From Cenococcum geophilum (Eukaryota): a stretch of DNA of 64,000 nucleotides. Position 1 is the first letter of the stretch. Each line of letters starts with the position of its first letter. Of this stretch, positions 6,951 to 49,846 are shown in pieces. Both the position numbers and the translations under genes were made by a program. Location: positions 11,346,001 to 11,410,000 of the forward strand of contig CP158635.1 in assembly GCA_050273025.1 (NCBI GenBank), written 5' to 3'. A model generated the notes under the pieces. The model was not told the DNA's origin. It ran no database searches and saw only the letters and a list, made by a program, of their open reading frames with translations.

Positions 6951-7200
6951 GTTGGATAATTATAACAATTTAGACGATAATAAGGAGCTTAGACAATACC
7001 TAAGGGCAGGCTTTTTTAAGAGAGGGGGGTAATATAACTATGCTAGGGCGCGAGGCAGATAAGGCAGATAAGGCAGATAAGGTAGGTAAGGTAGGTAAGG
7101 TGGATGAGGTGGTTAAATATATATAGTAATAGTGTTATTAGTTTCTAGTGCCTTGGATATATTTAGATAAACATTAAAGATTCAATTATATCACCTATGT
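6951..7200 (+). mobile_element. Remainder of the interrupted Gypsy: pol end, polypurine tract and 3' LTR (right end approximate)
   Basis: ctaagggcaggcttttttaagagaggggggtaa then tataac (RIPped tgtaac) at ~7033. Same PPT context as the Gypsy at 48121-48152. Confidence 0.7.
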
Positions 7201-7399
7201 AGGATTTTTAATCCTAATACTATATTCCTTTTTTATATATTTAATTCTGATATAATTTATAGGATTAAAAAAATAATACTGTTTAACAACTTCTTTAATC
7301 TCGTTTGAGATCGAACAAATATAATAGAAGTCTTAATATTAATATTTCGCTATTAGCTATTAAATCTTTCTCTTCCTTTAATCCTCCGCTTAATCTTAT

Positions 7400-8960
7400 A
7401 ATATTATTATACTCCCCCCGCAAACATTAATACGTTACACTTAGACGGCTTCTGCGAACTCTATAAGGTTATAAATATCTTAAACTATAAAAATCTCACG
7501 CTTATATTGTATATAAAAGGTAAGGGCGGCACAGTAAACAGATTAATACTTACGTTAGAGGTGTATAGGGAGAGAAAGAACCCTATACGTTACTTAAGAC
7601 CCCACTTTACTAATCCCAAGGGCCTTCTTAACGCAATGGCCGAGAGTAACGCGTATATATTAGGTTCTCGCGCTATAGACTACTTCGTACCTAGCTCTGC
7701 TAAGTTATATTCTAATTTTAACTTCTATATCCAAGCAGATATTAAAGGCATTTTTAAAATGCTTAGTAAGATAAAGTTAAGCCATAGCGTATAGTGGACC
7801 TCTCTAATATAGTCGCTAGTCCGAAAATTAAGCTTCCGAAAATTTAAGATAGACGTAAGAGTGTTGCAACACATATTTAAGTCTAAAGAATTTAATGCCC
7901 TAATAGAAAAGTATCCTTAAAAAAAGGTTTATTCCATAAAATACAGCGAGGGCCTAGATATATCCGCTAGGTATACCTTTAATAGAACCGCGTTTTTATT
8001 TAACTAAGATATATCTAGTTAAAACAATTATTGGGATAGAGATATAGATAAAATGGACTTACCTAATCCTATCTATAAGACTACGGAAGATAAGGAGTAT
8101 AACGCTTACATTTAGTTACGGCAGTTCTTCGCCGATCTTTATCATTATTAATATAACTATGACCTACGAGGATTATATAAGACGATCTGGGTCTTATATA
8201 ATAGGAAGGGATTATAGCATCTAGGGACGTTACTAACCTTTTCCTTTTAGCACGAAAATAACTATAATAGGCTAGACAAATACGACCGAGGCAGCGAAAT
8301 ACTCGAGGTAATTAAAGGAAAGAGCGTAAAGAGTAGGGTTCGTATACAATTAATGTTTAATACAGCCGTCCCTTAGTTAACTCCTTTTTATAACATCCTC
8401 TAATTCTATTTAAGTTAAGTTTAATATTTTATTTCTAGGCTTAGAGCGGTACATTTATACCCTAAACCCTCCCAGCGGAAGGAGGTATATACTTAGTTAT
8501 ATAGAGTAGAGACCCTACGTGTCTAGGCGGCTAGAAAGAAGTATAAAGTTTAAGGATATTAATATATAAAAAATTAGGCGGCGCTAGAACTCCGCAGAAT
8601 AGGGGATAATAAATCCTTATTTATACCATTTCCGCAAAGAGAGGGATAGTCGGCTAAAACACTAAAGTAGTTCCGGGATAATTTGCAGGTTATAGCTTAG
8701 TAGTAAAAGGAGACCTAGCTTAATCCTCTACTAGGATTATATTAGATACTCCTAAAAAACCGTTAAAGGGTAGACATTAAGGCCACATAGTAGAATACTA
8801 AAAATTTGGGATATACATATAATAGCCAATATCTCCTTTAGCAATTCTATACTAACTATTTTAATAAATATAGCATCTTACCTAAGCTCGGTATTATAGA
8901 CTCCTATATCCAAGCTAAGTATTATAGAGGGTAGTAGTTATAGGGCCTTAAGTATCCCTA
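7400..8960 (+). pseudogene. RIP-degraded gene with pol-beta nucleotidyltransferase-like motif
   Basis: 7657-7730 reads ILGSRAIDYFVPSSAKLYSNFNFYI, de-RIP ISGSRA.DYFVP......SDFDFY (hGS..DhD pattern). Later IQLM, VHLY, KY..GY and RRIGD..SLFIPF in the same degenerate ORF. Confidence 0.5.
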
Positions 8961-9484: not shown

Positions 9485-10575
9485 GATACGCTAGGTGGTT
9501 ATATAAGCTAGATAATCGTACAAACTAGGTAATTATATAAGCTAAATAGACAAGCGTAGCGCCCTCTAAACATATAGCTAGGATTTTAACGGATTTAGTG
9601 GCTGCGGCTTTAGTCCTATAAGCTAGGCGCTTATAGGAGCTAGGGGATCCTACGAGCTAGGTAATCGTATAAGTAGGGTAATCTAACCTAGCGCCTTCTA
9701 ATTAACGCCTAGCGTGCAAATAGAATATTAATAGGTTTAGTAACTCCGCGGCTTTAATCCTATAAGCTAGGCAATCCTATAAGCTGGGTAATCGTATAAG
9801 CTAGGTAATCGTATAAGCTAGGTAATTATATAAGCTAGATACTTATAGGAGCTAAATGCTTATAAAAGCTAGGTAATCTTACGAGCTAGGTAATCTTATA
9901 AGCTAGGTAATCTTATAAGCTAGGGGATCTTACAAGCTAGGTAATCTTGCGAGCTAGGTAATCTTATAAGCTAGGTAATCTTATAAGCTAGGGGATCTTA
10001 CGAGCTAGGGGATCTTACGAGCTAGGTAATTCCATAAGCTAAGTAATCTTGCGAGCTAGGTAATCCTATAAGTTAAGTGATTTTGCGAGCTAGGTAATCC
10101 TATAAGCTAGGTAATCCTATAAGCTAGGTAATTCTACAAGCTAGGTAATTCTACAAGCTAGGTAATCTTATAAGCTAGGTAATCCTACAAGCTAGGTAAT
10201 TATGCAAGCTAGGTAATTGTACAAACTAGGTACTTATAGGAGCCGGCCGATCCTACAAGCTAGGCAATTGTGTAAGCTAGGTGCTCGTAGGAGCTAGCTA
10301 ATCCTATAAACTAGGTGGTTATATAAGCTAAGTGCTTATAGGAGCTAGGCGCTTATAGGAGATTGTAAGAGCTAGGTAATTATAATCTAGTACCCTTTAT
10401 TAACGCTTAGCTGTAAGCTAGTCAATTCTATAAGCTAGGTAATCGCACAAGCTAGGCAATTATACGAGCTAGGTAATAGCAGGGTCTAAGTATAAGCCTA
10501 TCTTACTGCCTTTATAAAGTTAAAAATAACCACTAGTAAATTATGCGAGCTAGGTAATCCTATAAACTAGCTAAA
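9485..10575 (+). repeat. ~1.1-kb degenerate 17-bp minisatellite (consensus ~gctaggtaatcttataa)
   Basis: e.g. 9902-9952 gctaggtaatcttataa|gctaggggatcttacaa|gctaggtaatcttgcga; dozens of units with short interruptions. Confidence 0.9.
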
Positions 10576-10619: not shown

Positions 10620-13520
10620 AATTATAGCAAATATATTATAGGATAAAGCTATTTCTAAAGACCTACAAAAACACTTTCTCGGCACGGTAAAGATTGCTCT
10701 ACAGTATCTAAAATTTCACGGGCCTAAGGAAGAGTATCTTAATCTAAACCATATCTCTTATTTAGAAAAAGTTTTTAAATAGGATTGCGCTTGACTTGAT
10801 CTAGGGAATTACATCCCTGCGATTATCGACCCTATAAAATTCGATATATTAGTCCAAAAATCTAGTACTAGAAAACACCTACTAAAACTACTTCACTAAA
10901 AACTACTAAGGCTCCCTATATAGAACAACACGTCTTTACTTTACTTATATAGCAGGTATTATATTACGGTAGCTTAGAATATGCTCTTCTTAGAGGATAG
11001 ATAGTGGTATACTAACCTATATTTATTGGGTTTATTTACAGCTTTATTTACAGTTAATTAATCTAATAAGGATAGGTATATCTAAGCGAACGGGGATATA
11101 TATTTAAGAAAGGTACTTATACGCTCAAAAAGCTACTAACGGCGAAGTATACTAACTAGTCCGCTTCTATCAATCTTATAGGGATACGTTAGGCGAATAG
11201 AGATGGCTCCTTTAACTAAGTAATAATAAGTAGGGTAAAGTTATAAACCGGATCCAACAACCTAAACATAAATGGTTAGGCTATATAATAGATACGCTAT
11301 TACTATATATAGGGTTATAGGGGGACCTTAAACTTAGATATTTTCCTATAATATAGAGTTAGAAGTGCCTAAAGGTTTACTTCCTACAATTAAGATTTTT
11401 TAGTATATTACTTACAAATAATAGGAAATCTGCTACTATATCGGGCATATATAGTAAGTTTAGAAGTTTATTACCAATAATAATAAGTTAATACTACCTT
11501 TTCTTAACGGGGGTACGGTCTAGAGCCTATAATCCCTTACGCCATTAGCGTATTCTAACAACAAAAATCTAGTAATAACATTAGTAAACACTAGTTAGGT
11601 TTTTCCTAATATACTAAATTCGCTACACCCAAAGGTCCTAACTTAGTTACTTAAGGTACTAGGCATAATCCCAACATTTAAAACATTCTTTAAAGATTTA
11701 AAGTATCTTAAACCCGTAATAATAATCTTAAGGGGAATACTACCGCTAAACCATAAAGATTCTATAAGAGAGATAATTACGCGTTGCTATATAGGGTTAT
11801 TAGAGCACAACAGTTATTATTTAGTTCAATTTAGTCTAAATAGAAAGCGTTATATACTAAACACCCCAGGATTACTTATCCGCTATCGTTAACTCTACTT
11901 ATACTTACTATAATATTTTCCTAGCATAACTAATATATCTCCATTAATAGACAGAAGAAGTAAGAAGGATAATATTAAAAGCGGTAAAAAGAGCAATAAC
12001 TCCGCTAGAAAGAGGGCTTAGTATAAATTCGCAAGGCTAGCTAGTAATCTTAGGTTTAAGTTAAAGCCTATTAAGGAACTTCTAGGGGAAGACCCTAATA
12101 AAGCAGAAATCTGGGTTTCCCTTTGTAATCGGCGACCTAAAGAATTATATAAAATCAGTAACGAGGATTTTAAATTAAAGGTAGACCGCTAACTAAAAGT
12201 GCTTTATACTAAATTTAAGCGGCAAATACTCCTAGACCCTACTCTTACTCTAAGCGTTGATTTTAGTAGTAAGCCTATTAATTATAGATGCGGTAAACCG
12301 CTATAGGCTTCCCATATCTCTAATAAGAATCTTTTATTCCTACCTATATTATATAGTGTAGATAATACAGTTAGTCCGAAAGCTATGCTTACATCGTTCG
12401 CAGTTAAACGATTTATTTTCTTCTGCTTTTTTAGGTAGAGGGATATAAACGATTCCGACCTTTAGACAAAAGAGATATAAGCACCTGCATCGGAAGTGCC
12501 TAAGAGTGCTCATTTAGCTGGCCATAAGCAGCAGCAGGGCCACGAGCAGCAGCAGAGCCACGAGCAGCAGCAGAGCCACGAGCAGCAGCAGAGCCACGAG
12601 CAGCAGCAGAGCCACAAGCAGCAGCAGAGCCACGAGTAGCAGCAGAGCCACGAGCAGCAGCAGAGCCACGAGCAGCAGCAGAGCTACGAGCAGCAGCAGA
12701 GCTACGAGCAGCAGCAGAGCTACGAGCAGTAGCAGGGGAGTAATGAGTAAAGTCAAATGGGTTACCTTATGGTCTGGCTGCCTCCTAAAACTGCTATAAC
12801 AACTACTTAAAGCGCCCTTTTTACTATCAAATCTCTATTTAATAAATGCAGGATTATAAATTAGGTTGCTTTTTTTTAAATTATAACCTTAAAATATAGC
12901 AGGGTAGGGAACAATAGCTCCGCTATAAAAAATATAGCTTCCGAAATTATAGACGGATATTTTAACAATAACTTTATTAGAGCGCCTTAGAAATTTGGAT
13001 ACGTTATTACAGACTCTCTATAGTTAATAGATATTATAGATGTTTATAATAGAGCTAATTTAATAAACATGAATTTTCTATAGGTTATTTTTATTCTAAA
13101 CAAAGGATCTAAGTCACTAGATACACGGTTTCTTAGAAAGCCTTTTTCTTAATATATAGATCTATTTCACGGTGGCAAGGCTATAAAATAAAAAGCACTA
13201 AAGGACCAGCTACTAACTCCTAACAATTCTATAAAAAGCATAAGACTTATCTAATAAGAAATCCAGCCTACGCTACCCCCTAAAACGCAAACTAGGCCCA
13301 AACTTCGCCCGTCTAACAAAGATATAGACGAAATTTAGTAAGTGCGAATTCCTCAAATTAGGACGTGGCAAGGGGAAAGCCGACTTTTATATCCATAGAG
13401 AAATATTACATTGCTAGAAATTTAAGTTAAGGATTTTAGTATAAGCGCTTAATTTTATCTAATTATTAACCTAAAGGGATTAAAGAATATATAACGTCGG
13501 CTTAAGTATTATATTAGGAT
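10620..13520 (+). pseudogene. DUF3723 family protein (Starship accessory gene), RIP-degraded
   Basis: FLGTVKIAL; LDLGNYIPAIID; LLYLYSRYYI.VA..EDR*WYTNLY (de-RIP LLCLHGRHRI..DRWW..DLY); IPTFKTFFKDLKYL; TSFAVKRFIFFCFF. Confidence 0.8.
12521..12738 (+). repeat. 18-bp tandem repeat (~12 units) encoding HEQQQS in the DUF3723 frame
   Basis: gccacgagcagcagcaga units; in frame after TSFAVKRFIFFCFF...APASEVPKSAHLAG. Confidence 0.9.
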
Positions 13521-14199: not shown

Positions 14200-17100
14200 C
14201 TTAGTATTTATCTTTACTCCTTTTTATCGGAAAGAAGAATAAAAAATAAGCACTAAGAGCTCTCTTTCCTGTAATTAACCATAAACGGCGTAGCGTTTAA
14301 GGTATAATTAGGCTAAATATTAACCTAACTACCGCAGGCGCTAAAAATCTAATGCTCTTCGCCGAGGCTAATCTAGAAAATCTTCCTATTAAACTTAGTA
14401 AAACGGCAGACTACTATTATAAGACTAAGCGGTATAGGCTTAACTAGGTCAGCGACTAATATCCTAAGCCTAAAACTAAAGATGTGGTTAATAGGATCTA
14501 CTCGCTATTACTTCTCCCCTTTACTAATATCCTTTGCCTTTTCGTAGAGGATTTCTTAAGTTTAGAAGAGGTTTTAAATCTTCTTTATAGATAGGCAGAA
14601 CGAGGCCAGGAATTGGTAATAAGTTGACTATATATTATTATTATCGTTATATAAACAGTTAACTCTGCGGACTTTATTAAGAGCCTACTAAATATATTAA
14701 AATCCTTCTCTAGCGTAACAATTATAGCCTTACTAGATACTATGGAAGTATTACTAACTACACGCTACTTTTCACTTAAAGATGCTCTACTACAAGAGGC
14801 TGACTATACTTAACGAGCAAAAATTACTAAGCAGGTACTATTCTCCGCAACTTACCTTTAAGTATTTTTCTATAAAGCGTTGATTTATTTTACTATAACT
14901 ATAAGTCTACCTTTTAGTTTCTTCCGTGCGTCTAGGGAAGAAAATAACATTAATAATCAGTTTTCTGCCCACCTAGGCTTATTCCTATAACTCTATTACC
15001 AGCATAAAGTCTCCCTTAATAACGCCGCTATATATATTGCCTTAGCTATTCTTATAAATAGTTCTCCCCCTAAAATACATTATAAGATTTTAAGACCCTT
15101 AATTCCTACTAGTTACTAAATATATAAGGTTTTTATCCTAGAGCCCTTTTTCGAACTCTTTATTACAATTACTGCCAAGCAGTATATCTTAAACAGCATT
15201 ATCTTTAGCACCCGTTAGCTTATAACTAGTGTCGCTTAATAAAGGATAATCTTATAACTATACTATCTAATTTAGATATAGATAACATCCCTTCTTCTTA
15301 GCTATACTAGCAGAATCTATAGGAACTTAAATAGAGTATTCCCTAACTAAAGTTAAATAGAACTTACCTATTCTGCCTTCGCAGAAAACCAAAATATATA
15401 CTTATTTATAGACATTTAATATATAATATTTACGTCTATAGATACGGCACGCCGATATAAGGCATTAAATATCACTTTAAAGTCTCTAAGTGTATATTAT
15501 ACCAATCTAAAGGGCCGCTAGGAGTAAAGCTTCTTCTACTAACTACTGGTACTTATTTACTAGCGATTAACGGAGGCGGCGTCTAAGGAAAGCTATTACT
15601 GCTAATACTAAGAAATCTAGAGCAAGTTTAGGACCTCCTATATCCCCTCTAGGATGATTTCAACTTCGCTCTAAGTACTAGTTTAGGTAGGGTTTAATTA
15701 TACGATAATATAAAATGAACTAACTTCTATAGGAGGCCTTACTATTCTCCAGCTTTTCCAGATACGATAGAGTATCCAAAATTGCATTTTTATATTTAAG
15801 ACGCTAGCTAAACGAGTTTTCGCTATACAGCGTCTTGCTAGGCTTTTACTATACTTTCGTATAATTTTATTTTTAGGTTCTTAGCTTACTAAAAGCCGTT
15901 CTAAGATTGCCAAACTTAAGTTCTGTCTTAAAGATGCATTCGGAATAAATAACTAGCTATTCAATATAGTAAAGTTTAGAACATCCGGTATAAAAGTTAC
16001 TATAACAGCCATAATAATATCTAAGGGCGCGCTATACATATTATCGAATTATAATGGCGTATTAGAACGTCAAAAAGATTGCAGTAAATTTAACCTAAGC
16101 CATTTAAACTCTATCCTAATATACAGCTAGGTTATAAGCATGTTAAATCAACTAATCCTTATAATAAAGTATTAATATAGTAAGCGTAAGTTTCAATTAT
16201 CTTATTTATATATATAGACTAACAATTTATAGTATATAAGCTACGTCTACTATACCCACATACGTTTAATATACTCTTACTTACTCTGTTAAAGTTCTAA
16301 TAGATTTATCTAGTATCTTTCTAGCTAAGTTTATCCCTATTATCGGTTTTATTTAAGATAGGGGTATTAAAAAGTATAACAACCCTATAGATCTAATCTA
16401 TTAGGAAAGTCGTATTGCCTTTAACGCAGACCCTAATCTAACCATATCTATTAGTTTAGGGTTTACTCAACAGCCTAGTTCCCCTAGAGCCCCGTCTACA
16501 TAATATAGTTTTTAGAATAATCCTATACCTCGGCTCCTAAGGTCGTTTAGGACTATACTAGTAGCTTAGAATAACTACGTTAAGCATTTAAATTAACTTA
16601 AGTCACTATTAGTGGATAAGGAAGCTCTAGGAAGCTACTTCCGGATTAATATACCCTTTAAATACTAGCCCACACTAGACGAGATAGGTAAGATAGCAGA
16701 TCTTTAAAGGGAAACGCATCTATATCTTTAGTTATAATAACATATCCTTCTAGCCATTAAATAAGCACTACGGTCGGCCTCTTTCTTCTTTAAATTAAGC
16801 GAGATGCCAAGCTTTTAAGGGCGTTAGTACGAATGTCATGGATCTATACATTGTTAGAGTCTAAATGCCTAAGCGCTAGTCTGCGATTTGGTACAAAAAT
16901 TCCCGTCTACCCAGTTCTTAACTAATTAAAACACTAACTTAAGTAATCTAAATGAGGGTAATCTATATATAGATTATGGAATCTATAATAAGGCCGTTAG
17001 ATTCCCCGTCTATTACCTTAGTCAGAAACTAACTATATACTTATAATTAAATCAGTTATACCGCCAAAAGATTAGTAGCTTTCCTAATTTAATTACTTAG

Positions 17101-19466: not shown

Positions 19467-20150
19467 TGCTATACCCCTTACTACTCCCTACCCTTTTAAT
19501 TACCTCATTAGCTAGCTTCTCTAGCGTCTCTACTTACTTCACCCTATATTTCTAATAAGTAAACTATATATTGGCCTACCTAAAATATCCCTTTGGACAA
19601 TAAACTACTAACTTCCTATCCTTTATATACTCGCTAAGCTTTAGTAAGGATATCGGCGATATAGTATTTGGATTAAAGAATATAGTAATTACTGTGGCGC
19701 GCTCTAAGCCGTTAAACTCCCATTTGATTTGCCTCTATACTTCTCCATTAAGTTTATCTTACGGTAAAGAACTATCCTAGTCGTTACGCCGTGGGTTTAG
19801 AACTATAATTCTATACGGCTTAAGAAGCTCTATAATATCCTTTTGCCATTCTATTACTTTACCACTTTTAATACTACCAACAAGGAAGATAGATTTTCCA
19901 ATAATAGCACGTATAGACGGTATGGTTAGTAGCTAATAGACGATGAAGTTAGGGTGCTTATCCATAACAATAGGTTTAGCGGATTTTTTAGTAGGAGTTA
20001 TAATGCTTGGGGCGGTAGGCGTAGAGTCGGCAGGAATTCTAATAGGACTTAAAACAATCGGGATCGCAGCTAGTTCGGCGGGGATTTTAATAGGAGTTAT
20101 AGCGATTAAGGGCGTAGTAATAGACCAGAAGTTTAGGGATAACTCGGATA
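19467..20150 (-). pseudogene. Nucleoside 2-deoxyribosyltransferase-like protein (Nuc_deoxyri_tr2-type) with Pro-rich N-terminus, RIP-degraded
   Basis: SIFLVGSIKSGKVIEWQ..IVLNPRRND*DSS..QIKWEFNGLERATVI.IFFNPNTISPISLLKL...KLVVYCPKGYFR*ANI. Confidence 0.85.
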
Positions 20151-23100: not shown

Positions 23101-23255
23101 TCTCTAGAGATTAAGACTATACCTAAACTAAACGATCTTGGAATTTATTTAAAATACCTTTTATCTAATTATACACTTCTTTTTATTAGTTTGGTGGCCT
23201 TTATATTGTTATAATTTATATTACTATATCTTGTTAAGTATGAAACTATTAAGTA

Positions 23256-23458
23256 TGTTACAGTACTAGCAGAAAACGGTAGATTGCGGCAGATTGCGGT
23301 TACGTAACTAAAGGATTGTATAAAACTTCAAGCGGCGCTACTATTCTTCTCCTTTCCTTTCTCTAGCTTTAGATCCTCATTAATAGACAATCTAATTATA
23401 TAGGCTTACGTACGTCCTTCCTACTATACTCATACCTTAATTAACTAAGTCGCTAGCA
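23256..23458 (+). mobile_element. Solo Gypsy LTR related to the LTRs at 42482/48153
   Basis: tgttacagtact...aagtcgctagca; shares cttctcctttcctttctctagctttagatcctc. Flanks AAGTA/GAGCA are consistent with a RIP-altered 5-bp TSD. Confidence 0.85.
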
Positions 23459-25699: not shown

Positions 25700-26820
25700 C
25701 CTATCTACTACCATCTTCTTAACAATTGGCCAAGTTATAACTCTATAATTACTTATCCAACTTAAAATCTTCTTAAGTATAATCTATTTATTATACTACC
25801 CCTATCTAAAAGCATATAGCAGATATATAGCACTAAAATCCATCTCCTAGTCCTTCCGCGTTCTTTAGTTCTTAATAATAGTGTTATAGTAGATAATAGG
25901 ATCCGTTAAATTAGTAGTAATAGGCTTAGGAGATGCGGTACCGTGTATCCTAAAGAGGGCGTCCTTACTATCCTAGAACTAGTATATTGGCGCAAATACG
26001 TTCCGGTCTAAGATAAGGACTTTATTTAGAATACTAATAAGGCGCCCAGTAATTTGTATTAGTAGTTATAAATTAAATTCCTAGGCGCCGTTAAACATAG
26101 CTATCTACTTACGCACTATAAGTCTTATTAAGGCGCTATTCGGCTTTATTAAGAAAACTCTATTATTAATCATACCGTTAATAGTGCCGTCCTTCTCTGC
26201 GCCGCTATACTGTTGTCTAGCAATAAAGGTAAACCCTGCGTTCTATAGTAGAGTTAGGGACTTAAGCGGCATAACGTCCTAGTCTATATAGATGCCGCCA
26301 ATCTTAAAGACCTCTTCCTAGCGTAGCACGTCTAACTTATACTAGATAGCTTTAATAGGCTTTATTATATTAGGGCCTATAAACTATAGAACCTAGACGT
26401 AGTTAATTTGGAGAAGGTTTAGGAAGGTAGTAAAGACCTTACAAGTCTATATATTCCCTATTTCGATAGCGGACTTAATCTTAGTTTAGTTATAGTTAGT
26501 ATAGAGGTAAATCTTAGATAGCTTAATATATATAACTAAGGCGTATAGGGATAGAAAGTACGTAAAGTGTATATTAATTATAGAATCTAAATCCCTCTTA
26601 ATATATATATAGTAGACGATACTAGGAATATACCTATATATAGTAAGATACTATATTACGGCATCCTTAGCGGAAGGGTATAGGAAGGAGGCTAGAGAGA
26701 GAAGAATAAGGATAGGGACGCTAATTTTAACAAATATCTATAACTAGGAGTAGAGGAATAGTGGAATAAGGTTAAGGGGAGCGTATCCTTTCTTGCGGTA
26801 GAAGGGGTTAAAAAATTATA
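25700..26820 (-). pseudogene. Glycosyltransferase family 32 (DxD sugar-binding), RIP-degraded
   Basis: N-terminal hydrophobic segment; IPSIVYYIY (IPNIVHY); YKLDVLR*EEVFKIGGIYID*DV (HKSD..R...GGIY.DWDV); INNRVFL; ILDRNVFAP. Confidence 0.85.
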
Positions 26821-36599: not shown

Positions 36600-37386
36600 T
36601 CTTGCTAGCTTTATAGTCGTAATCTCCAGAATACTAGTAATATAAATTTTAAAACTATATATATACTATAAGCAAAGCCCAGAAATCTAGCTCGACCTAA
36701 TACTTACTAACTCTTTTTATTTATTCGCGGCGTAGTAGGTTTATAATGGCCTTTTCCTATTCTAGGCGAAGTCGCGAGCCGAAATGAGGTGGCTTAAAGT
36801 CCTCTTTACAAAGAATAACGCCTTCTTTAAGTAATAGTTAAATAAAAGCAATCTTAACCGGGTTATATATAGCTGCCTCTCGTATAAAGGGGTCTAGTCG
36901 TGCTTTAGCATCCTATAGTATATATATAATCTCTTTTTAGCTATAGGAAATGGCTGCGTTTAGCGGGATACGTCTATTAGTAGGCTTGACTTCGGCCCCA
37001 TACTTAAGCAATAGTTTAATAATTTCTATATTGCTTCTCTACAAAAGTTCTAAAAGCACGCTTTCGCCTTCTCTTAGCGCGTTAATAGGCGCGCCCCGTT
37101 CTAGTAGTAGGCGAACTATATTTATATAGCCTTCCTCCACAGCCAACAGTAAGGGCTTAATAAGGTTGTTAACATTAATAAACGGAACAGCCTTCTAAGC
37201 GGTGCTAGCCTACCTAAACTTCACTGCCTAGTACATTACGAAGCTGCTATCGCGTTTATAAAGCTCATTATTTAATATACAGTAAAAGTGACGACCTATA
37301 ATAATAAGAGCATTAATATCGCATACGCGTTTAAGATACTCCGCTATTATAGGAATTAATTTAATAGTCAGACAAAGTATAGACAT
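36600..37386 (-). pseudogene. F-box-like plus ankyrin-repeat protein, RIP-degraded
   Basis: MSILCLTIKLIPIIAEYL...DINAL...LNNELY; ankyrin repeats PLLLAVEEGYINIVRLLLERGAPIN and NIEIIKLLLKYGAEV. Confidence 0.75.
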
Positions 37387-38640: not shown

Positions 38641-38844
38641 TATTCACTAAAAGCACAGGAGCTTGTTAACTTTAAACTTAACCTTTTAATAACTAGGGGG
38701 GAACAAACGGATAACTTTTAGGGATGAAAAGGTCCGCCCTTAGGAAAAATAGGCCTATAAGAAAGAACCTATCCACACAAAGGAGCTAGTTAAGGAGAAA
38801 AAGTTAGTAGTATAGGGTCGCTACAGTTTTAAGTGCCCTATTTA

Positions 38845-39962: not shown

Positions 39963-40110
39963 AGAAAGAAGCTACTGCCAAAGCTACTATCTAAAAGAAT
40001 TCCAATGTATAGGGCAATATAGATCAGGAAGCTGGTAAAGAAGGGGGTAGCGCCGCTTGACGTTATATACAATCCTCTAGTCACATAACGGCAATTGTCT
40101 AAAATAGACA

Positions 40111-40434
40111 TGTCTATATGGCTAAGCGAGCACTACAGCAGCACCCCTGCATTTTAGTAACACTAACATCATTAACATTTATAAAATTAAGCCTTGCTTG
40201 CTTGCTTTCCCTCCTACCCACACCTTTTTCTTTAGTTATATATTTTGGGCTTTATAAATAGATACTGCAGTAATATGCTTACGCATAGGTCTATAGGCAT
40301 TACGTTTAGTTAAAGTAGGGCAATCCCCTATAAATGGCCTTGCGAATATACCTATTCTTAATTAATGCCTTTAAGCCCGTACCCACCAATTAGATTAATT
40401 AATCCTCTTCTTCGCAAGCGTATAAATAATAGAC
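40111..40434 (+). mobile_element. Solo A-B split-direct-repeat footprint of the Ngaro-type element
   Basis: Inverse complement of 58451-58775 over ~320 bp; no TSD. Confidence 0.85.
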
Positions 40435-40859: not shown

Positions 40860-42481
40860 CTATAGAGTATAAGATAGTAGAGAAGCGCTATACACCATAA
40901 ATATATGGTTTTTAAAATGCTTATACCTAAAGAGCATTATTCCCAATAAGTAACAATATGGGTCTAGACATAGGATTAATTCATCCTGTCTAAAAAAAGA
41001 AAGATATTACTTCTTAACATGTTCCCTTACTTTACGCAGACGACAGAAAAGGGTATATACTCCCGGCTTATAGGCATAGAAGAGATACTATTAATTTATA
41101 ATCTTTATAGGGCCCAGTTTAGGTTTAACCATTAGCTCTAGACTTAGCTCTAAAGTAGGAAGAATACCCTAATCACAATCACAGATAACCTTGCGCTTAA
41201 CTATAGGTTTTAGTACCCAGCATAGATTAAGCAAGGCTTTAATTACGTTAATTTAATATTAGAAAATTTCTTATATTATAAAATTAGCTAGACGTTTATA
41301 CAAGAGCTAAATAACGCGTTTTCATTTAGGATTATACTCCACTAGTTCTAGTTTCCACTCTTCCTTGCGTAAACCAATAGCCAATAGCGCAAGCTGTCGC
41401 CTTAAATCTTTAGTCTTAATTTTATTAAAAAAGTCAAGCTATATTTCCTTCCGTTTCCCCCTTTTTAAGGCCTTCTTTTATTTTTCTAATTCTAATGCAG
41501 CTTATATATACAATTTATACTCTTTACTCCCAAGTACCTATGCATTTTTAAGAGTACCGTATAGTTCCCTAGTTTCTTTAAATAAGGCATCGCGCTGCTA
41601 ACAGAGCTCTATAATAAGTAGATAAGTCTTAAGAGAATTATTTATTATATCTGTAACCGCTTTAGGAGCCTATAGGTTAATGTCCCGACTAATATACGTT
41701 AGGGACTTTATAAGTGCGTTAGTAGAAGGACAGCTAAGGAAAGCAGCCTAAACGTTATATAAAATCCACTTATTTATATAAGCCTAATAGACACTAGCAT
41801 CTTTATAACCTATAACCTATTGCAATTAAGCTTAGGTTACTATAACATTAACCACTTCACTTATTCCTCGCCAAATATTATAGGGATTAAAGATTTGCAT
41901 TATTCTAGCTATAAAGCCTAGCCGCTAAATATAATAAAGGAAAGTATAATAGGGTATAGGCTTATCTAAAGTTCCGATCCCGTCTACTATTATAATTACT
42001 TACCAAAATATTAGTTTATTTTCCTAGCTTTTCTTCCATCTTAAACGCGAGGTTATTTAATACGGGTTAACTCAAACCATAAAAACCTACTTAATAGTCT
42101 AGAATTTAAGTTTAAAGGCATTATTAAAAATTCCTAGGACAATTATATAAATTATTAAATCGAATATTAGGTCGTTAACCTTATAAAAATAAAATATCTT
42201 GCTATATCTAATTTAGTATTTATTAAAGAAAAACTTATTATATATGCCTTACCGTTTAGAATTCCGTCTATACCCTTTAGTAAATTATAAATTAATCTCC
42301 ATAGTAATAAGGTCCTATTTAGCCCCCGGCTTTTAAATAAGGATAAGTGTAATATATTTATAATACAAAGTATTAATAGGTTCGTCCTTTTCCTTAGATC
42401 CTTCACTAATTCCATTATATTAGTTATCCATTTCACTATCATCTTTGTCTTCACTATTGTCATCCCCATCTCTATTATTAA
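40860..42481 (-). pseudogene. Starship captain tyrosine recombinase (DUF3435), C-terminal part
   Basis: NIWRGISEVVN...VIGYKDASVY*AYINK..V*AAFLSCPS.NALIKSLTYISRDINL*AP (de-RIP IRRG..MGH.DA..Y..DVQAAFLG.PS..HMSR..DPRAP). C-terminal zinc-finger-like REHV..C.DP.C..HFKNH. Confidence 0.92.
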
Positions 42482-45400
42482 TGTTACGGCACTGGCAGAA
42501 CCTAGTAGAACTTAGTAGAACTTAGTAGAACTTCGCGGTCACGTGACTAGAAGACCGCATAAAAAGAACCCTACTTTGACCAGCGCTGCTCTTCTTCTCC
42601 TTTCCTTTCTTTAGCTTTAGATCCTCGTTTATAGACTACCAATTATATAGGCTTACGCGCCCCTCTTGCTGTGCTTATACCTTAATTGACTAAGTCGCTA
42701 ACATTATCTAAAGCTTAACTACCCTTTTTTCCTAAGAAGGAACTTAAATATATTTACGGACTATAAACTAGAATAGAATATAGAATTAGACCTAAAGAAT
42801 ATTACCAGAACTAGAAGAATAGAAAAGAATAATAAGACCTATAAAATACGCATAGACTAGAACCCCTGTAGAATCCTACTAGAGGTTACCCTAATAACTA
42901 TACCACGATGCCAAGAAATATAGTAGCCGGCAAAGCAGCCGTAGGACCCTTAAATACCTCCGACGGTAAAATAGCAACTAACTTAAACTCCTAAGTGGAG
43001 CTTATAGCAGCTAATGCCGAAATTAAATGATTTTAAGAGCTGCTTAAAGCTAGAGAACCCCCTACGCCTAGTAAGGAATTATTAGACACCTAGAGACTTA
43101 CTATAGTCCTTAAGGCTCTAGCCTAATGTATAGCATTAGTATTATTGCGGTCCGTAAAGGTCGCGGACCCCCCATTGCTTATAAACGGAACCGACCCTAT
43201 ATTTAATAATTGGAAGCTTTAATTACAGAATAAGCTTAAAGTTAATGCGGACCACTTCCCTACTACTTAGGCTAAAATGGCCTACGTCTTCGGCCGTACC
43301 GGTGGGGATGTATAGACGCACCTACGTCCACGGTACGTATAGGACTTGACAGAGCCCTTCCTCTCTAAAGAAGAGATAATTATCTACCTATCTTCTATTT
43401 ATAAGGACCCCTTTAAAGTATAGAACGCCCGACTTGATTATAAAAGCCTAAATATAAAAATAATAGAGACTTTTTTGGCCTTTTAGACCCGCTTTCTACA
43501 CCTAGCCGGCTAGGCTTAAATTCCCTAGGAAGATCTAATACCAGACCTATTTAATAAGCTTACCCTAGACCTATAGCGAGCCGTACTGCTAGTTTTTACT
43601 ATTATATAGACGCTAAAGGAACTTACGGACTAGTGCTTGGCTATTAACTAAGGCCTCCGCTAAATTAAGGCACGTGCCAAATGGTATAAAGCTAAAAACC
43701 CTTTAAATTAGACTATAAGCAATATAAGAACGGCCCGTAATGCCCCAGCACAATTGGCAACCCCTATAGCACTATCTATATAGCCTACCGCCAATTTAGC
43801 AGCTAGCCGTGCGGCTAGCCCTACTATAGGTCCGGCGAATACTTAGCCTATATATAGCAACCCCCGTATATAGGCCCTTAGTAATTAAGGAGCTTACTTC
43901 TCTTATAGACAGAAAGGTTACTATATAAAGGATTGCTTGATAAACGCGAAAGCGGACGAGGTTCTATTAATCTAGGAGGATAGCGCGGAGTTGGAAAAAG
44001 AGGAACTCTAGAGGAAGACTCCTCTCTAGGGTTAAAAGGGATTAATATGTTAGATGTTAATCTGGGTTGGCTAGTTAGTAGAAGAAGCTATACTATCCCT
44101 TATACTTTATTCCGCAATAGATACTAAGTTTTAACCTCTGCTTTAGCTAACTCTAAAGTAAATGCCTTCGCCTTAATAGATACCTAGTATGCCATAAAGC
44201 TGGCTGACTTTTTAAATGCACCTATTAAAGAACTGCCCAAACTAATTCCTATCTGTGGGTATAATGGGCGGATAGGACTACCTATTGCGACTATCTTGCG
44301 GATTTACCTCTGTGTTAACGGACGAAGGTAGTATAACGCCCCCTTTCTTATTACGGACCTAGGTAGCTATAATATAATCTTAAGGTGAAAATAGCTAGCC
44401 TATTTAGGCTTATAGCTTAACGTATAGAGTAAACGGCTTACCTAGCCTGAAACCCTACCCTTGACCCCTTCCTTTATAAAAGAAATCAGCATTATAATAG
44501 AAAACCTTATACGGCCCTAGATTAATACTATTTACTAGGCTGATGCTATATATAGGGACCAGGCCTTTAAGAAAGATATATAGCTTAATTCGCAATGGAT
44601 CTGTATACTATATCGCCCCTAGACTACCTATATTACGCCACCCGTATTAAAGACTTAGGAAGTTAATAGTGACCTAGAAAAGCCCCCTATAGAGAGCTTA
44701 GGCCCTATATAGCTATAAAGAATAGCAAGGGATGTTAAATATTATACTAAACTAATAGATCGGAGGGATAATCTATGGAAGATAGAATAGGAGCTAAGAA
44801 AGATTATAAACCCTAAACTGTAAAATATGGTCTGGAAAATGGCTATAAGGAAACTAGCGGACCTCCTACTAGTTAATGTTTGCTGTATTAGTGCCGTAGG
44901 ATTCTACCAGAACTTGGTTTAGCCTAATACCGTCGCCTTTATAATAAGCTTATATGAAATTAATTAAATAATTAAGGAAAAGGGAAATAAGCTTAGCGGA
45001 TAAGAAAGCGAGCTTATAGATAAGGAACTAGTAGAATAAAAGCTGCCTTATTAACACCAGAAATTTAAGGACGTATTCTCTAAAGCAGTGTCTGATATAC
45101 TTTTACCTCACCAACCGTATAACTACAAGATTGAGATTAAGTAGGGCAAAGAAAACACCCTTAGCTTTAGCCCCCTCTACGAGTAGTTTATTACCGAATT
45201 ATAGGCTATAAAGTAGTATCTTATTAATAACCTAAATAAGGGCTTTATTAAGCCTAGCTAAGCCCCTTTTATCTCGCCTATTTTCTTTATTAAAAAGCTA
45301 AATAGAGGACTCCGCTTCTGTATTAACTACTATAAGCTAAATAATATAACCCGTAAGGATCGCTATCCGCTACCCCTACTTAATAAGACTCTAGCTTAAA

Positions 45401-48374
45401 TAAGTAGAGCTAAGGTCTTTATAAAGCTTAATATCCGCTAGGCCTTCTACCGAATTAGGATAGACTCTAGGTCTAAAGATCTTACTATATTTCGGACCTA
45501 TTACGGAACGTATAAATATAAAGTACTCCCTTTTAGACTAACTAATAGACTAGCTACGTACCAGCGGTATATAAATGATGTACTCTTTAACTACCTTAAC
45601 AATTTCTATATAGCCTATTTGGATAATATTATAATTTACTTTAAGAATGAGCTAGAATACAAGGAGTATATTTATAAAGTCCTATAACGGCTCCGCGAGG
45701 CTGGCCTCTAGGTTAATATTAAGAAGTTAAAGTTTAGTGTTAAGCGTATAAAGTACTTAGGTTTTATTATTAGTATGGATGGAATTAAAACCGACCCAGA
45801 GAAAACGGCCGTAATTAACCAGTAGACACCCCCACAGACTATAAAGGGGGTACAATCCTTTTTAGGGTTTTGTAACTTCTACTAACGCTTTATTAAGAAC
45901 TATAGTAGGATTGCCCGGCCTCTTAACCGTCTTACTAGAAAAGACCAGCCCTTCTACTTTAACGCTATATGTAGGCAGGCCTTTAATAAGCTTAAGAAAC
46001 GGCTGGTATCGGCTCCCCTACTTACCTATTTTAACCCAAAACGGCCCTTAATGCTAAAAACTGATGCCTTAAATAGCGCGATAGCTAGTGTTTTTTCCTA
46101 GAAGCAACCGGACGGAGAGTGGTACCCTATTATATACTATTTAAAGACTATAATAGATACTAAGCTAAATTACCACATCTATAGTAAAGAAATGCTAGCT
46201 ATTATCTCTAGCTTTTAGCACTGGCGTATATAGCTAGAGGGGACCCCTAAGCCGATTAAGGTAGTTTTAGATTATAAGGCCCTAGAATACTTTATAATAA
46301 CTAAGGCCCTTATAGCCTAGTAGGCACGCTAGGCGGATACCCTATCTTAGTTTAACTTTTTGATTATATATAGACCAGGCGCTATAAACCGTGCGGATGC
46401 TTTTATAAGGCGCGAGTAAGACCTAGATAACTAAACGGCTATAAAGATCTCACTATGGACCTAGACGCTACTATAACCAGAATACCTTAACCCCTAGATA
46501 TAGGCAGAACTAAGCATAGACTCCTTAGGCGCCAAGATATATCCTATTAACTCCTTTAAACTTAACCTTATTAATAAACTACTATAGGCTAACTAAATAA
46601 CCCCCTCTCTATAGGAATACCGTAAAAAGGCAAAGAACGTTGCTAGCCTATAGTCCCTTGAAAACGGACTACTTAAGCACTAGGAACGGCTAGTAGTAGC
46701 TAAAAAATAGAACTTATGGACTTAGCTTATTGCCGAAGCTTATACCTAGGTCTCTACGGCCCACCCTAGAAAAAATAAAACCCGTAAGATTATTGGTGAC
46801 CGCTACTACTGGCTCAAAATAATTATAGATATTAACCGTTATATATAGAACTATAACAGCTGCCGTAGATCTACAATTCTATGAGATAAGACCCTAGAAC
46901 TATTAAAACCTCTCCTGATACCTGATTGCCCCTAGTAGCATATCTCTATAGACTTCTATAAGCTACTAACAGACTGCGATGGATATAATATGGTTATAAT
47001 TCTAGTTAACCGCTTTAGTAAGCGCCCGTTCTTAATTCCCTGTTATAAGAATATTAATGCTAAGGAGGCGGCCCGACTGTATATCTATTACATTTACCGC
47101 ATTTATGGACTACTAGATACTATTATATCTAATTACGGCCTATAATTTATATCGGCCTTTTAGAACGAGTTTACCTAAATCCTAGGTATTAGGCTAAAGC
47201 TCTCTATAGTATACTACCCCCAGACAGACAGCTAGACGGAGATTATAAATTAATATTTAGATTAGAGACTCCGGCCTTTTATTAACTACTTCTAGGATAA
47301 CTAGGGCGAACTACTACCCCTAATAGACTACGCCCAGGCGACCCTACCCTATAACTCTACAGGATTTGCACCTATCTAACTAGAAATAGGGTATTTACCC
47401 TAAATAAGCTTTGACTAGGATAGACTAGAAGGACTATAGACCGTACGCGAGAAACTATCTTATAAGGAAGCCTAGCAGTACGCTAAGCGCTTAGAGGAAG
47501 CCTAGATAGTAGCCCGTATAAATCTAGAAAAGGCCTAGAAATTAATAGAATAGTAGGTAAATAAGTATAGGCGCGAACCCGACTTTACTATAGGCGATAT
47601 GGTCTAGGTTATAATAAAGAACTAGAAGACGGAACGGCCTAGCTATAAGCTAGACTATTAGATAGCGGGACTGTATAAGGTCCTTAAGAAGATAGGTAAC
47701 TCATATAAAGTAAAGCTCCCGGATTTAATTAAGGTTTACCCTATTTTCTTACTAGATAAGCTACGGAAAGCTATAAACAACCTATTGCCTGGATAAAAGA
47801 ACGAACCTCCCCTACTGATTTAAGTTAATAGCGACAACGAATGGGAAATTAAAGAAGTACTAGCCTGTAAACTAGTAAGGAAAACGCTAAAGTACCGCGT
47901 TAGTTGGAAAGGCTATAACCTAGATCCTACCTAGTACCCTATATAGAACTTTATTAGCAGTCCCTATAAGCTTTAAGAATTCTATAACCGCTACCCTAAT
48001 AAACTAGGACCCCTAAAGTACCTAGATAAGTGGATAGAGTGCTAGTATAGTAAAGACGATAAGCTACCGGAAGAATATAAAGATAAAAACGCCCTATAAG
48101 CATAATACGGACTATAAAGCCTAAGGGCAGGCTTTTGCGGAGGGGGGGGTAATGTTACGGCACTAGCAGAACCTGGCAGAACTTGGCAGAACTTGGCAGA
48201 ACTTCGCGGTCACGTGACTAGAAGACCGTATAAAAAGAACCCTACTTCGACTAGCGCTGCTCTTCTTCTCCTTTCCTTTCTCTAGCTTTAGATCCTCGTT
48301 TATAGACTACCAATCGTATAGGCTTACGCGCCCCTCTTGCCGTACTCGTGCCTCGATTGACTGAGTCGCTAACA
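42482..48374 (+). mobile_element. Full-length RIP-inactivated Ty3/Gypsy chromovirus inserted in the captain
   Basis: 222-bp TG..CA LTRs 42482-42703 and 48153-48374; TSD ATTAA (42477-81, 48375-79); PPT 48139-48149. Domains: gag, protease, RT (RFCINY, KDRYPLP, AYLDNI), RNase H, integrase, chromodomain (~47840-48000). Confidence 0.96.
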
Positions 48375-49280
48375 ATTAATTTCGTTATTACTTATACCAT
48401 CTCCTACTCCCCTATCCTTATCATAGGTCTTAAAAGCGCATTAGGTTACCACTTTCGTATTTCTCTTTATATAGACTAATATACTTGGCTAAGATACTGT
48501 ATATATATAGATAAGTATTAAAAATACAAGTTATAGACTCTGTCGCCCATCTAAAAATATAGAGGTATCGCGAGCCTAGTAATAATATAAAACCCGAAAA
48601 ATATCATTAACATTTATTACTAGCTTCTCCTTAGTAGATATATTAAGCCCATTATTCTTAGTCAATAGTCCGTTAATATACTATAATAGTTAGCGGGATT
48701 TTATAAATATTTAAAGTAATTTCTATACGTCATTAATTTCTTCATTAATGTCTTTAGGCTAATCCTTCTCAGCATATTTTTAATAGAGCTATTGCTAGTA
48801 TTTATATTTCTAACAAATACTAGTCCTTTTCCGTAATAGATAATTATCTACAATCCACTAAAGAAAAATTTTAACGTTATGGTTTAAGGCATTCTTAAAA
48901 AGCTAAGTAGGGTTTTTCTTTATATTCTTATAGAACCTAAATAATAAGCCATAGAATTGGATTTTAGATAAGAGCACTCTTACCTTAACTATTGCGTTAA
49001 AATTTCGTTTATATTATTCTTCGTTACTAGTAAATAATTTTTCTTTACTAAACCTATCTTCTTAAATTCTTTACGGAGTTTTTTATAATACTTAGTCAAA
49101 TATTTTAGTTGCGCTAGTGGCTTGCGTCGTTAAATAGGCGGATGTTTAGGTATCCATCTAGGTTTCTACCCAAGTTTGTGCCTATACTTACGCCTAGGTT
49201 TATGCCTTAGGCTTTTCTTTAGCTTGTTATATAGGAGGGATATATATTAATTTGGTTCCTAAAATAAAGGGTATTACTAT
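48375..49280 (-). pseudogene. Starship captain tyrosine recombinase (DUF3435), N-terminal part with introns
   Basis: YINGLLTK..GLNISTKEKLVINVNDIFRVLYYY*ARDTSIFLDGRQSL*LVFL...YTVS*PSILV (de-RIP KPV..VDD...LHHHW..DT..FPDGRQ..QLA...YTASRPGALV). Confidence 0.92.
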
Positions 49281-49846
49281 AGTAATAGGGCGGGCGCGGA
49301 GTCCAACTTATAAATTAAGGCGAGGTAGAGTAATAGAGTAAGTCAGGTAATAGCATAGAATTGTTAATACGATTAGCAAAATAGCGGAGAATATTAAGTA
49401 GGTATAGGAAAAGAACTAAAGTAAAACATATCTATTGGAAGAGAAAGAAGAGTGAACCAATATAGTTGGTTAATAGAAGTAATACCGCGTAGAAGGCTGC
49501 AGCGGGCGTATTAAGCTTTATAAATATTTAGGAAACGTTAAAAGCCAGGGAAGTCTATCATAACCGGCTATAAGTCAGTAGGATAATAGATGACACACTT
49601 TTAGAATACAGGGCCGTCCCAATGATGGGTGATTAAATATGGAAGTACGCAGTTAGAAGTTTTAATGGGGGAGAGACACTTCGCTTAGGTCTTAGCGCCT
49701 AGGACAAGCGCTGCTTAAAACAGCGAGCAAACTATCTGAAAATGGACGTTAGTGTCCCTGGACATAGAGTTATACCAGTAATCATTTGCGAGTTTACGGT
49801 AGATATTGACATCATTAGAAATGTTAAGATTCACATGCCTAACGAA

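What the first reader, a model, noticed from the sequence alone, without database searches (positions are those of the whole stretch)
7200..49777. Cryptic Starship giant transposon (>40 kb) invisible to the ORF track
Seen: a DUF3435 tyrosine recombinase on the minus strand (40.9-42.5 kb plus 48.4-49.3 kb), about 0.5 kb from the RIP/GC boundary, followed by many RIP-destroyed genes including DUF3723 and patatin at the far end. Known: Starships carry a DUF3435 captain as first gene, with DUF3723 and patatin as recurrent accessory genes. Inference: this was one mobile unit. Even single-copy-type cargo (GT32, F-box/ANK, NDT) is RIPped, so the whole element was probably present in two or more copies during a sexual cycle.
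Basis: partly seen in the sequence, partly recalled or inferred. Interest (0 to 1): 0.85.

Follow-up and report, generated by a model that had tools for sequence, protein, structure and literature searches.

The report
RIP-killed Starship-type giant transposon end
This AT-rich block holds the mutated wreck of a Starship-type giant fungal transposon whose recombinase end sits at an insertion point inside a host gene, a known kind of relic whose far end lies outside the window.

Summary
The core observation holds. A DUF3435 tyrosine-recombinase ("captain") pseudogene lies on the minus strand at 49160-48375 and 42476-40863. It is about 800 codons long with 55 stops, and a Ty3/Gypsy element (42482-48374, TSD ATTAA) splits it. 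Homologues bridge the split.

The element end is at 49776/49777, 616 nt upstream of the captain ATG. A 98.5%-identical metagenome contig (L001) and contigs of two other strains leave the window exactly there. In L001 a host Ank-AAA+ ORF runs on across the point, so the window carries an insertion into a gene. RIP-type changes have leaked about 250 nt into the flank.

Pseudogene mismatches to intact relatives are 84-100% C>T/G>A.

- **Confirmed:** DUF3723, NDT and ankyrin.
- **Borderline:** GT32.
- **Motifs only:** patatin.
- **Not found:** F-box.

The far (3') end, TSD and TIR were not found in the window. That 7.2-49.8 kb is one unit therefore remains an inference. By published definitions this is a "Starship-like" RIP-degraded element, so a new member of a known kind.

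The parts
49161..49776 (-). 5' terminal non-coding region of the element, between the insertion junction (49776/49777) and the captain ATG
   Evidence: L001 aligns to 52592-49777 and stops exactly at 49777. X6 record 18 and X9 record 26 also leave the window at 49777, and the X1 unitig starts at 49746, 31 nt inside. The ATG was placed from the minus-frame reading.
48375..49160 (-). Captain (DUF3435 tyrosine recombinase) pseudogene, N-terminal part; 262 codons with 22 stops; includes one copy of the Gypsy TSD (48375-48379)
   Evidence: tblastn gives P0008 aa27-193 -> 48998-48465 (E 1.5e-16) and P0032 aa53-230 -> 48938-48357. P0018 aa1-95 -> 48680-48375. Stop count. No Pfam hit of its own.
42482..48374 (+). 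Nested Ty3/Gypsy LTR retrotransposon (LTRs 42482-42703 and 48153-48374; TSD ATTAA at 42477-42481 and 48375-48379)
   Evidence: RVT_1 E 2.5e-20, RT_RNaseH_2 E 2.3e-24, Integrase_H2C2 and SH3_Tf2-1. LTR pair 91% alike, all differences transitions, TG..CA ends and TSD. Very high contig depth in all four runs.
40863..42476 (-). Captain pseudogene, C-terminal part; 538 codons with 33 stops; in frame with the N part once the Gypsy and one TSD copy are set aside
   Evidence: Pfam DUF3435 E 6.4e-36, profile 45-396/418. P0158 (428 aa) aligns ungapped to 42146-40866, with 140 of 156 mismatches in the RIP direction and 4 in reverse. For P0005, 68 of 68 mismatches are in the RIP direction.
40104..40433 (.). 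One unit of a 329-nt high-copy repeat inserted just 3' of the captain; also present reversed at 58451-58927
   Evidence: Self-blastn 90% over 330 nt. The depth bin 40002-40668 is 11,560 against 46 for single copy in X1, and an X1 contig joins 40100 to 40443 without it.
36901..37152 (-). Ankyrin-repeat pseudogene fragment (possible NLR remnant; no NACHT or F-box found)
   Evidence: Ank_2 E 7.7e-8 and Ank E 9.5e-6.
26252..26356 (-). GT32-type (DXD sugar-binding region) pseudogene fragment, borderline
   Evidence: PF04488 at 21.7 bits and 24.1 bits against a cut-off of 23, E 6.2e-5.
23255..23458 (+). Solo LTR of the same Gypsy family; flanking 5-mers differ only by two RIP-type transitions
   Evidence: blastn 72-85% to the two LTRs. 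Flanks AAGTA / GAGCA.
19585..19896 (-). Nucleoside 2-deoxyribosyltransferase-like pseudogene
   Evidence: PF15891 E 2e-20, profile 2-105/105.
15557..15700 (+). Patatin-like motif pair only (oxyanion-hole and nucleophile-elbow motifs after reversing RIP-type changes); not supported by any profile or homologue
   Evidence: Motifs and codons. Pfam negative at E<=5. Homologue search negative.
11036..12433 (+). DUF3723 pseudogene, profile 77-507/508 spread over three reading frames
   Evidence: PF12520 E 7.3e-9 and 5e-30 and 5.5e-19.
7237..8928 (+). RIP-killed gene of unknown function (32 stops) with intact relatives elsewhere
   Evidence: P0159 aa1-564 aligns ungapped, with 157 of 187 mismatches in the RIP direction and 14 in reverse. 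P0156 is 68% identical and has no Pfam family.
589..6950 (+).
   Evidence: LTR pair 95.5%. TSD. Weak rve hit E 0.0057, and polyprotein order read by eye.
49777..51537 (-). Host flank: an Ank + AAA+ (AAA_2/AAA_5) gene whose last exon is cut by the insertion
   Evidence: Pfam on ORF 50218-51537. In L001 the ORF 2603-3013 crosses the junction, with a ClpB_D2-small match at E 0.001, below cut-off. 8 of 9 differences within 250 nt of the junction are RIP-direction in the window.

Best explanation
The right part of the block is the 5' end of a RIP-inactivated Starship-class element. A DUF3435 tyrosine-recombinase captain reads inward (leftward, minus strand) from an insertion junction at 49776/49777.

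The likely order of events is as follows.
1. The element inserted into the last exon of a host Ank-AAA+ gene (shown).
2. A Ty3/Gypsy inserted into the captain (shown).
3. Because the family was present in several copies, RIP struck during one or more sexual cycles. It riddled the captain, the Gypsy LTRs and the neighbouring genes with C>T/G>A changes and leaked about 250 nt into the flank (direction of the changes shown; timing inferred).

The RIP-killed genes to the left are most likely its accessory and cargo genes (inferred). These are DUF3723, a patatin-like motif, a GT32 fragment, an ankyrin fragment, NDT and the unknown gene at 7237-8928. The 3' end is not in the window, so the size is at least several kb and probably more than 42 kb. 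This copy cannot move.
For: - **Captain:** Pfam DUF3435 E 6.4e-36. 177 homologues at E<=1e-3; the five I scanned (three long, two short) are DUF3435.
- **Split gene:** 4 of 22 long homologues hit both halves collinearly, P0018 bridges the Gypsy site, and the frames are continuous.
- **Junction:** L001 is 98.47% identical over 2816 nt and ends exactly at 49777, followed by 4130 nt with no match in the window. Two further strains' contigs break at 49777, and the X1 unitig runs 31 nt into the element.
- **Polarity:** in L001 a host ORF crosses the point with a D2-small-type match.
- **RIP:** indices. RIP-direction against reverse mismatches are 68/0, 140/4 and 157/14. Leakage: 8 of 9 differences within 250 nt of the junction are RIP-direction.
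- **Multi-copy:** depth is 185-425 against 46 in X1 over 38-42 and 48.7-50 kb, and the differences are nearly all transitions.
- **Gene set:** DUF3723 is a recurrent Starship gene, and in Voyager it is adjacent to PLP (passages).
- **Mechanism:** whole-element RIP of duplicated Starships was shown in crosses (passages).
Against: - No 3' end was found. The first 700 nt of L001's far flank have no counterpart in the window even in an R/Y alphabet (best 66/80 against 63/80 for shuffles).
- There is no inverted copy of the terminal 30-60 nt, so no TSD/DR could be read.
- Copy-number data cover 38-58 kb only and are uneven. In X9 the 48.7-50 kb bins are about 10 against about 5 for single copy, while 38-42 kb bins range 27-280. 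Parts of the block may therefore be different repeats.
- Pfam found nothing in 27.3-34.3 kb, and no FRE or NACHT anywhere.
- Patatin and F-box are unsupported.
- Heavy RIP hides domains. The Copia RT visible by eye gave no hit, so 'no TE domains in the cargo' is weak evidence.
- L001's far flank carries its own PiggyBac-like relic about 500 nt from the junction.
Confidence: 0.72

Rival explanations
1. This is a small multi-copy DUF3435 element a few kb long: a captain with short flanks, a stripped-down Starship derivative or Crypton-like unit. It inserted at the edge of a pre-existing RIP-degraded AT-rich region. On this view DUF3723, NDT, GT32, ankyrin and the 7237-8928 gene are not its cargo. 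They are relics of other duplicated DNA or of another, captain-less Starship.
For: - Only the 5' junction is proven.
- Depth is several-fold to tens-fold above single copy and differs between segments and between strains. This is more copies than the 0-5 per genome listed for the four Macrophomina Starships (table passage).
- No 3' end, TSD or TIR is in the window.
- The left side of the window is an LTR-retrotransposon nest.
Against: - DUF3723 co-occurs with a captain within 38 kb, followed 3 kb on by a patatin-like motif, as in Voyager's adjacent pair.
- Composition and RIP indices are uniform (GC .31-.34) from 7.2 to 42.5 kb, unlike the nested LTR elements at .39-.40.
- No TE protein domain was detected between 7.2 and 40.9 kb apart from one solo LTR.
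- In X1 the bins 38-40 kb, beyond the captain stop, show the same few-fold depth as the captain.
Confidence: 0.22
2. This is not a transposon insertion at all. It is a rearrangement or segmental-duplication breakpoint next to a stray recombinase pseudogene, and the AT-rich block is an ordinary RIP isochore.
For: The far flank of L001 is not in the window, so a simple insertion is not formally closed. L001 itself has a TE relic near the point.
Against: - The break coincides in three data sets to the base.
- It lies 616 nt upstream of an inward-reading captain, the conserved Starship layout.
- The X1 unitig ends 31 nt inside the element. That is expected if other copies share the same terminal sequence with different flanks (my inference from k=31 unitigs).
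- The captain region is multi-copy.
Confidence: 0.06

Closest known systems
Starship giant transposons (Voyager, Hephaestus and relatives; Gluck-Thaler et al. 2022, PMC9156397, passages read; Urquhart et al. 2023, PMC10104507, passages read)
   Same: - The DUF3435 captain is the first gene at one end and reads inward.
- A DUF3723 gene is present.
- The insertion is polymorphic, with an empty site in a close relative.
- Other TEs are nested inside.
- It is vulnerable to RIP when multi-copy.
   Different: - Only one end was seen, with no TSD/DR or TIR read.
- The captain is dead (55 stops plus a Gypsy insertion).
- FRE and NACHT were not found, and patatin only as motifs.
- Apparent copy number is higher than usually reported.
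- The empty site carries TTAC at the breakpoint (offset 1 nt), but the base after N7 is C, not the A of the Hephaestus consensus. The captain's family was not determined.
RIP-degraded Starships already described: Frontier captain, Limos in Fusarium falciforme (PMC12257634, passages read); putative degraded Tangerine copy and degraded Horizon (PMC13486527, passages read)
   Same: Transition-only decay of captain and cargo, captain inactivation by RIP, and location within large RIP-affected regions with nested Ty3 elements.
   Different: Here the intact reference element is not in hand. Only protein fragments of un-RIPped relatives are available (P0005, P0158). The host lineage is unnamed; the closest named protein is from Cenococcum geophilum.
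Crypton tyrosine-recombinase transposons
   Same: A tyrosine recombinase is the only mobility gene, and TIRs may be absent.
   Different: From my own knowledge and not tested here, Cryptons are a few kb long, carry no cargo, and their recombinases are not the Pfam DUF3435 family. This gene matches DUF3435 at E 6.4e-36.

Membership tests
Starship (definition of Gluck-Thaler et al. 2022) | Gene with a DUF3435 (PF11917) tyrosine-recombinase domain | tested here: met
   E 6.4e-36, profile 45-396/418, read with X at stops. The five homologues scanned are DUF3435: three long at E 1e-70 to 1e-86, two short at 4e-45 and 4e-13.
Starship (definition of Gluck-Thaler et al. 2022) | Captain is the first gene at the 5' end and is oriented inward | tested here: met
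   The element end is at 49776. The ATG is at ~49160 on the minus strand, 616 nt away, and no other domain hit lies between.
Starship (definition of Gluck-Thaler et al. 2022) | Flanking target-site duplications or direct repeats at both ends | tested here: inconclusive
   Only the 5' junction lies in the window. The far flank of the empty allele was not found. Without this feature the paper's term is 'Starship-like'.
Starship (definition of Gluck-Thaler et al. 2022) | Terminal inverted repeats (often present, not required; absent in Enterprise) | tested here: not met
   No inverted copy of the terminal 30/40/60 nt is in the window, even in an R/Y alphabet. The true 3' end may lie outside the window.
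Starship (definition of Gluck-Thaler et al. 2022) | Presence/absence polymorphism with an empty site | tested here: met
   Met for one junction only. L001 continues with a host ORF across 49777. The X6 and X9 contigs diverge at 49777. The two-sided empty site was not seen.
Starship (definition of Gluck-Thaler et al. 2022) | Co-located accessory genes DUF3723, FRE, PLP, NLR | tested here: inconclusive
   DUF3723 is met. PLP is seen as motifs only. FRE was not found. For NLR there is only an ankyrin fragment. Whether these belong to the same unit is untested.
Starship (definition of Gluck-Thaler et al. 2022) | Large size with cargo (tens to hundreds of kb) | not testable with these tools
RIP-mutated DNA | Excess TpA and depleted CpA/TpG; differences from intact relatives almost all C>T/G>A | tested here: met
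   TpA/ApT is 1.4-2.0 and (CpA+TpG)/(ApC+GpT) is .33-.8 over 1-50 kb, against .7-.8 and 1.1-1.3 in 50-56 kb.
Ty3/Gypsy LTR retrotransposon (nested element) | LTRs with TG..CA ends, 5-bp TSD, and pol order RT-RNaseH-integrase | tested here: met

The most novel reading that the evidence does not exclude
A Starship family has recently been, or still is, mobile in a lineage related to the ectomycorrhizal fungus Cenococcum. On this reading:
- insertions differ between strains whose flanks are 98.5-99% identical;
- un-RIPped captains of the same family exist in environmental samples;
- each genome carries several RIP-killed copies.

That would be a burst of giant-transposon activity checked by RIP. 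It would imply recent sexual cycles in a group long treated as asexual, and gene disruption (here an Ank-AAA+ gene) as a cost of the burst.
Probability: 0.35. Interest if true: 0.6.

Novelty: new member of a known kind. Interest (0 to 1): 0.4.

Why it matters
Starships move large sets of genes within and between fungi, but starfish-type searches that rely on intact captain ORFs miss RIP-degraded copies. This case shows that such a relic can still be pinned to the base: captain layout, an insertion junction inside a host gene, an empty allele in a close relative, and RIP leakage into the flank.

If the host is indeed close to Cenococcum, no paper in the held library describes a Starship there. 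One search found 4 papers holding both words. In the one I opened, the Cenococcum genome paper, the word occurs only in the reference list.

The finding adds a data point on how RIP limits giant transposons in a very repeat-rich symbiont lineage. It does not reveal a new kind of system.

Tried and rejected
- **Frame finding.** The ORF listing under code 6 and sliding stop density both failed to pick true frames in RIP DNA, because TGA is depleted and stop density is about equal in all frames. I then read all six frames with X at stops in pieces through Pfam. A first attempt with 44,000 residues was too large.
- **Rfam** on the whole window gave 0 hits, so no 5S or tRNA target is visible.
- **A second captain copy** right of the non-RIP island was not found.
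- **Patatin** was negative in targeted Pfam at E<=5 and in a homologue search.
- **Earlier notes of the scan** held nothing.
- **Whole genome:** none is held.
- **Far flank of L001** was sought in the window by blastn and by an R/Y-alphabet scan, with nothing above shuffled controls.
- **TIR search** found nothing.
- **Organism hint** from the flank ORF 53967-56033 gave only 3 unnamed homologues.
- **Parts without contig cover** were not used as evidence.
- **The X9 joint 48375->57096** was set aside. I judged it to be another Gypsy copy next to a repeat, not a deletion allele.
Full report
**Composition.** The window is AT-rich from base 1 to about 49.8 kb (GC .29-.42). TpA/ApT is 1.4-2.0 and (CpA+TpG)/(ApC+GpT) is .33-.81. 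A normal island follows at 50-56 kb (GC .47-.53, indices .7-.8 and 1.1-1.3). RIP-like DNA resumes from 56 kb to the end. Only three ATG ORFs of 120 aa or more exist, all in the island.

**Captain.**
- Read with X at its 33 stops, 40900-42500 (minus) matches Pfam DUF3435 at E 6.4e-36 over profile positions 45-396 of 418.
- The piece at 48.4-49.16 kb has no Pfam hit of its own. That is expected, since only about 45 profile positions remain for it.
- A phmmer search of 1.84 billion representatives gave 177 hits at E<=1e-3.
- I laid 22 homologues of 560 aa or more on the window. Every hit fell at 40866-42470 or 48357-48998 on the minus strand. Four of the 22 hit both pieces in collinear order, for example P0008 aa27-193 and aa221-538.
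- P0018 crosses the gap: aa1-95 align to 48680-48375 and aa86-194 to 42467-42075.
- Five homologues I scanned are themselves DUF3435 proteins: three long at E 1e-70 to 1e-86, and two short at 4e-45 and 4e-13.
- The gene runs from about 49160 to 40863. It has 262 + 538 codons and 22 + 33 stops. The two parts are in frame once the insert and one TSD copy are set aside.

**Nested Gypsy.** Between the two pieces lies a Ty3/Gypsy element on the plus strand, with RT, RNase H, integrase zinc finger and a Tf2-type SH3 domain. Its LTRs are at 42482-42703 and 48153-48374, have TG..CA ends, and are 91% alike with only transition differences. The TSD is ATTAA. A solo LTR of the same family sits at 23255-23458. 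Its flanking 5-mers differ only by two RIP-type transitions.

**The element end.**
- A metagenome contig, L001 (6946 nt), was found through the neighbouring host ORF. It matches window 52592-49777 at 98.47% over 2816 nt and stops exactly at 49777. Its remaining 4130 nt match nothing in the window.
- I laid contigs of four runs on 38001-58000. A 1042-nt contig of X6 and a 1239-nt contig of X9 also fit only from 49777 rightward, leaving 346 and 454 nt unlike the window.
- In X1 a single-copy unitig (depth 46) spans 49746-56373, so it runs 31 nt into the element. With 31-mer unitigs this is what is expected if other copies share the terminal sequence but have other flanks. That reading is my inference.
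- In the captain's orientation the flank ends ...GATTACT. The element begins GGTATAAC, whereas L001 continues ATGACTCAG.

**Polarity of the event.** In L001 an ORF (2603-3013) crosses the junction. It carries a ClpB_D2-small-type match at nt 2765-2899 (E 0.001, 19.5 bits, below the cut-off of 21.9). The upstream ORF, window 50218-51537 on the minus strand, has Ank_4 and AAA_2/AAA_5 domains. The window allele is therefore an insertion into the last exon of an Ank-AAA+ gene. In the window the frame runs into the element and stops about 20 codons later (reading).

**RIP leakage into the flank.** There are 43 differences between L001 and the window flank. Of the 9 within 250 nt of the junction, 8 are C>T/G>A in the window. 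Beyond 1 kb, 4 of 23 are in that direction and 13 are the reverse. RIP therefore acted on the element at this locus and leaked into the flank.

**RIP as the cause of decay.**

| Gene | Relative | Mismatches | RIP direction (C>T/G>A) | Reverse |
|---|---|---|---|---|
| Captain | P0005 (202 aa) | 68 | 68 | 0 |
| Captain | P0158 (428 aa, ungapped to 42146-40866) | 156 | 140 | 4 |
| Gene 7237-8928 | P0159 (564 aa, ungapped) | 187 | 157 | 14 |

Close, un-RIPped relatives of both genes therefore exist in public assemblies.

**Other genes in the block** (six-frame Pfam, X at stops, E<=0.01):
- DUF3723 at 11036-12433 (+), in three frames.
- NDT-like at 19585-19896 (-).
- A GT32 DXD region at 26252-26356 (-), borderline.
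- Ankyrin at 36901-37152 (-).
- Nothing in 27.3-34.3 kb.
- No patatin, F-box, FRE or NACHT hit anywhere.

At 15569-15691 (+) two motifs, spaced 27 residues apart, revert by RIP-type changes to the patatin oxyanion-hole and nucleophile motifs. Neither Pfam at E<=5 nor a homologue search supports a patatin call. Pfam also missed the reverse transcriptase of the Copia element, which can be read by eye. Negative results in this DNA are therefore weak.

**Left side.** Bases 589-6950 are a Ty1/Copia element, with LTRs 95.5% alike and TSD GTTGG. It is inserted in what looks like the chromodomain tail and LTR of another retrotransposon. It is not a demonstrated element end. The first 700 nt of L001's far flank have no counterpart in the window, even when C/T and G/A are merged (66/80 against 63/80 for shuffles). 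No inverted copy of the terminal 30-60 nt exists.

**Copy number.** In X1 the bins over 38-40, 40.7-42 and 48.7-50 kb have summed contig depth 185-425, against 46 for the island. X5 and X6 show similar ratios. In X9 the values range from about 10 to 280 against about 5. The differences listed are overwhelmingly transitions. The captain region is thus multi-copy at 90% likeness or more, but the profile is uneven and covers 38-58 kb only.

**Comparison with the literature.**
- Gluck-Thaler et al. 2022 (PMC9156397, passages) define Starships as TSD-flanked elements with a DUF3435 gene at the 5' end in a conserved orientation. They call regions with a captain plus DUF3723/FRE/PLP/NLR but no TSDs 'Starship-like', and list OCH1 among recurrent genes.
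- Urquhart et al. 2023 (PMC10104507, passages) showed that a two-copy Hephaestus is RIPped along its whole length in crosses, and that its target is TTAC(N7)A.
- RIP-degraded Starships and nested TEs have been described (PMC12257634 and PMC13486527, passages).
- The closest named protein, P0018, is a partial Cenococcum geophilum protein. Four papers in the library hold both 'Cenococcum' and 'Starship'. In the one I opened, the Cenococcum genome paper, the word occurs only in the reference list.
- I did not establish the window's organism.

**Verdict.** This is a real, RIP-killed, Gypsy-interrupted Starship-type captain sitting at a proven insertion junction. The unity and size of the 42-kb block remain inferred.

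Noticed in passing
window 40104-40433 and 58451-58927: A 329-nt repeat, with one unit 3' of the captain and about 1.45 reversed units right of the non-RIP island. It is very high-copy: the depth bin is 11,560 against 46 for single copy in X1. One X1 contig joins 40100 to 40443 without it, so it behaves like a small insertion.
   Followed up: partly
window 12527-12735: A GC-rich 18-nt tandem array of 11.6 copies with 96% matches, directly after the DUF3723 reading frame. It is barely touched by RIP although it lies inside the RIP block.
   Followed up: no
window 9755-10316 (wider 9486-10477): A 17-nt minisatellite of about 33 copies with 75% matches, between the unknown gene and DUF3723.
   Followed up: no
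window 38842-38953 and 39195-39303: A 112-nt inverted repeat (83%) with a 240-nt spacer, MITE-like. Contigs of X1 and X6 show opposite-strand joints there.
   Followed up: no
window 7237-8928 (+): A RIP-killed gene with no Pfam family whose intact relatives (552-565 aa) occur only in short ENA/JGI contigs. It may be an unrecognised Starship-associated gene.
   Followed up: partly
window 49777-56373: The only unique DNA in the window is a 6.6-kb island with two ankyrin-type genes (Ank+AAA+, and an ankyrin protein at 53967-56033 with only 3 homologues). Repeats bound it on both sides, and unitigs of three runs end at 56373.
   Followed up: partly
L001 3304-5000: The empty-site contig carries its own RIP-like stretch (GC .28-.33). 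A PiggyBac-like transposase relic (DDE_Tnp_1_7, E 1.3e-9) starts about 500 nt beyond the junction.
   Followed up: no
window 61027-63999 (-): A second, reversed and more diverged copy of the Copia family seen at 589-6950, 70-84% alike.
   Followed up: no
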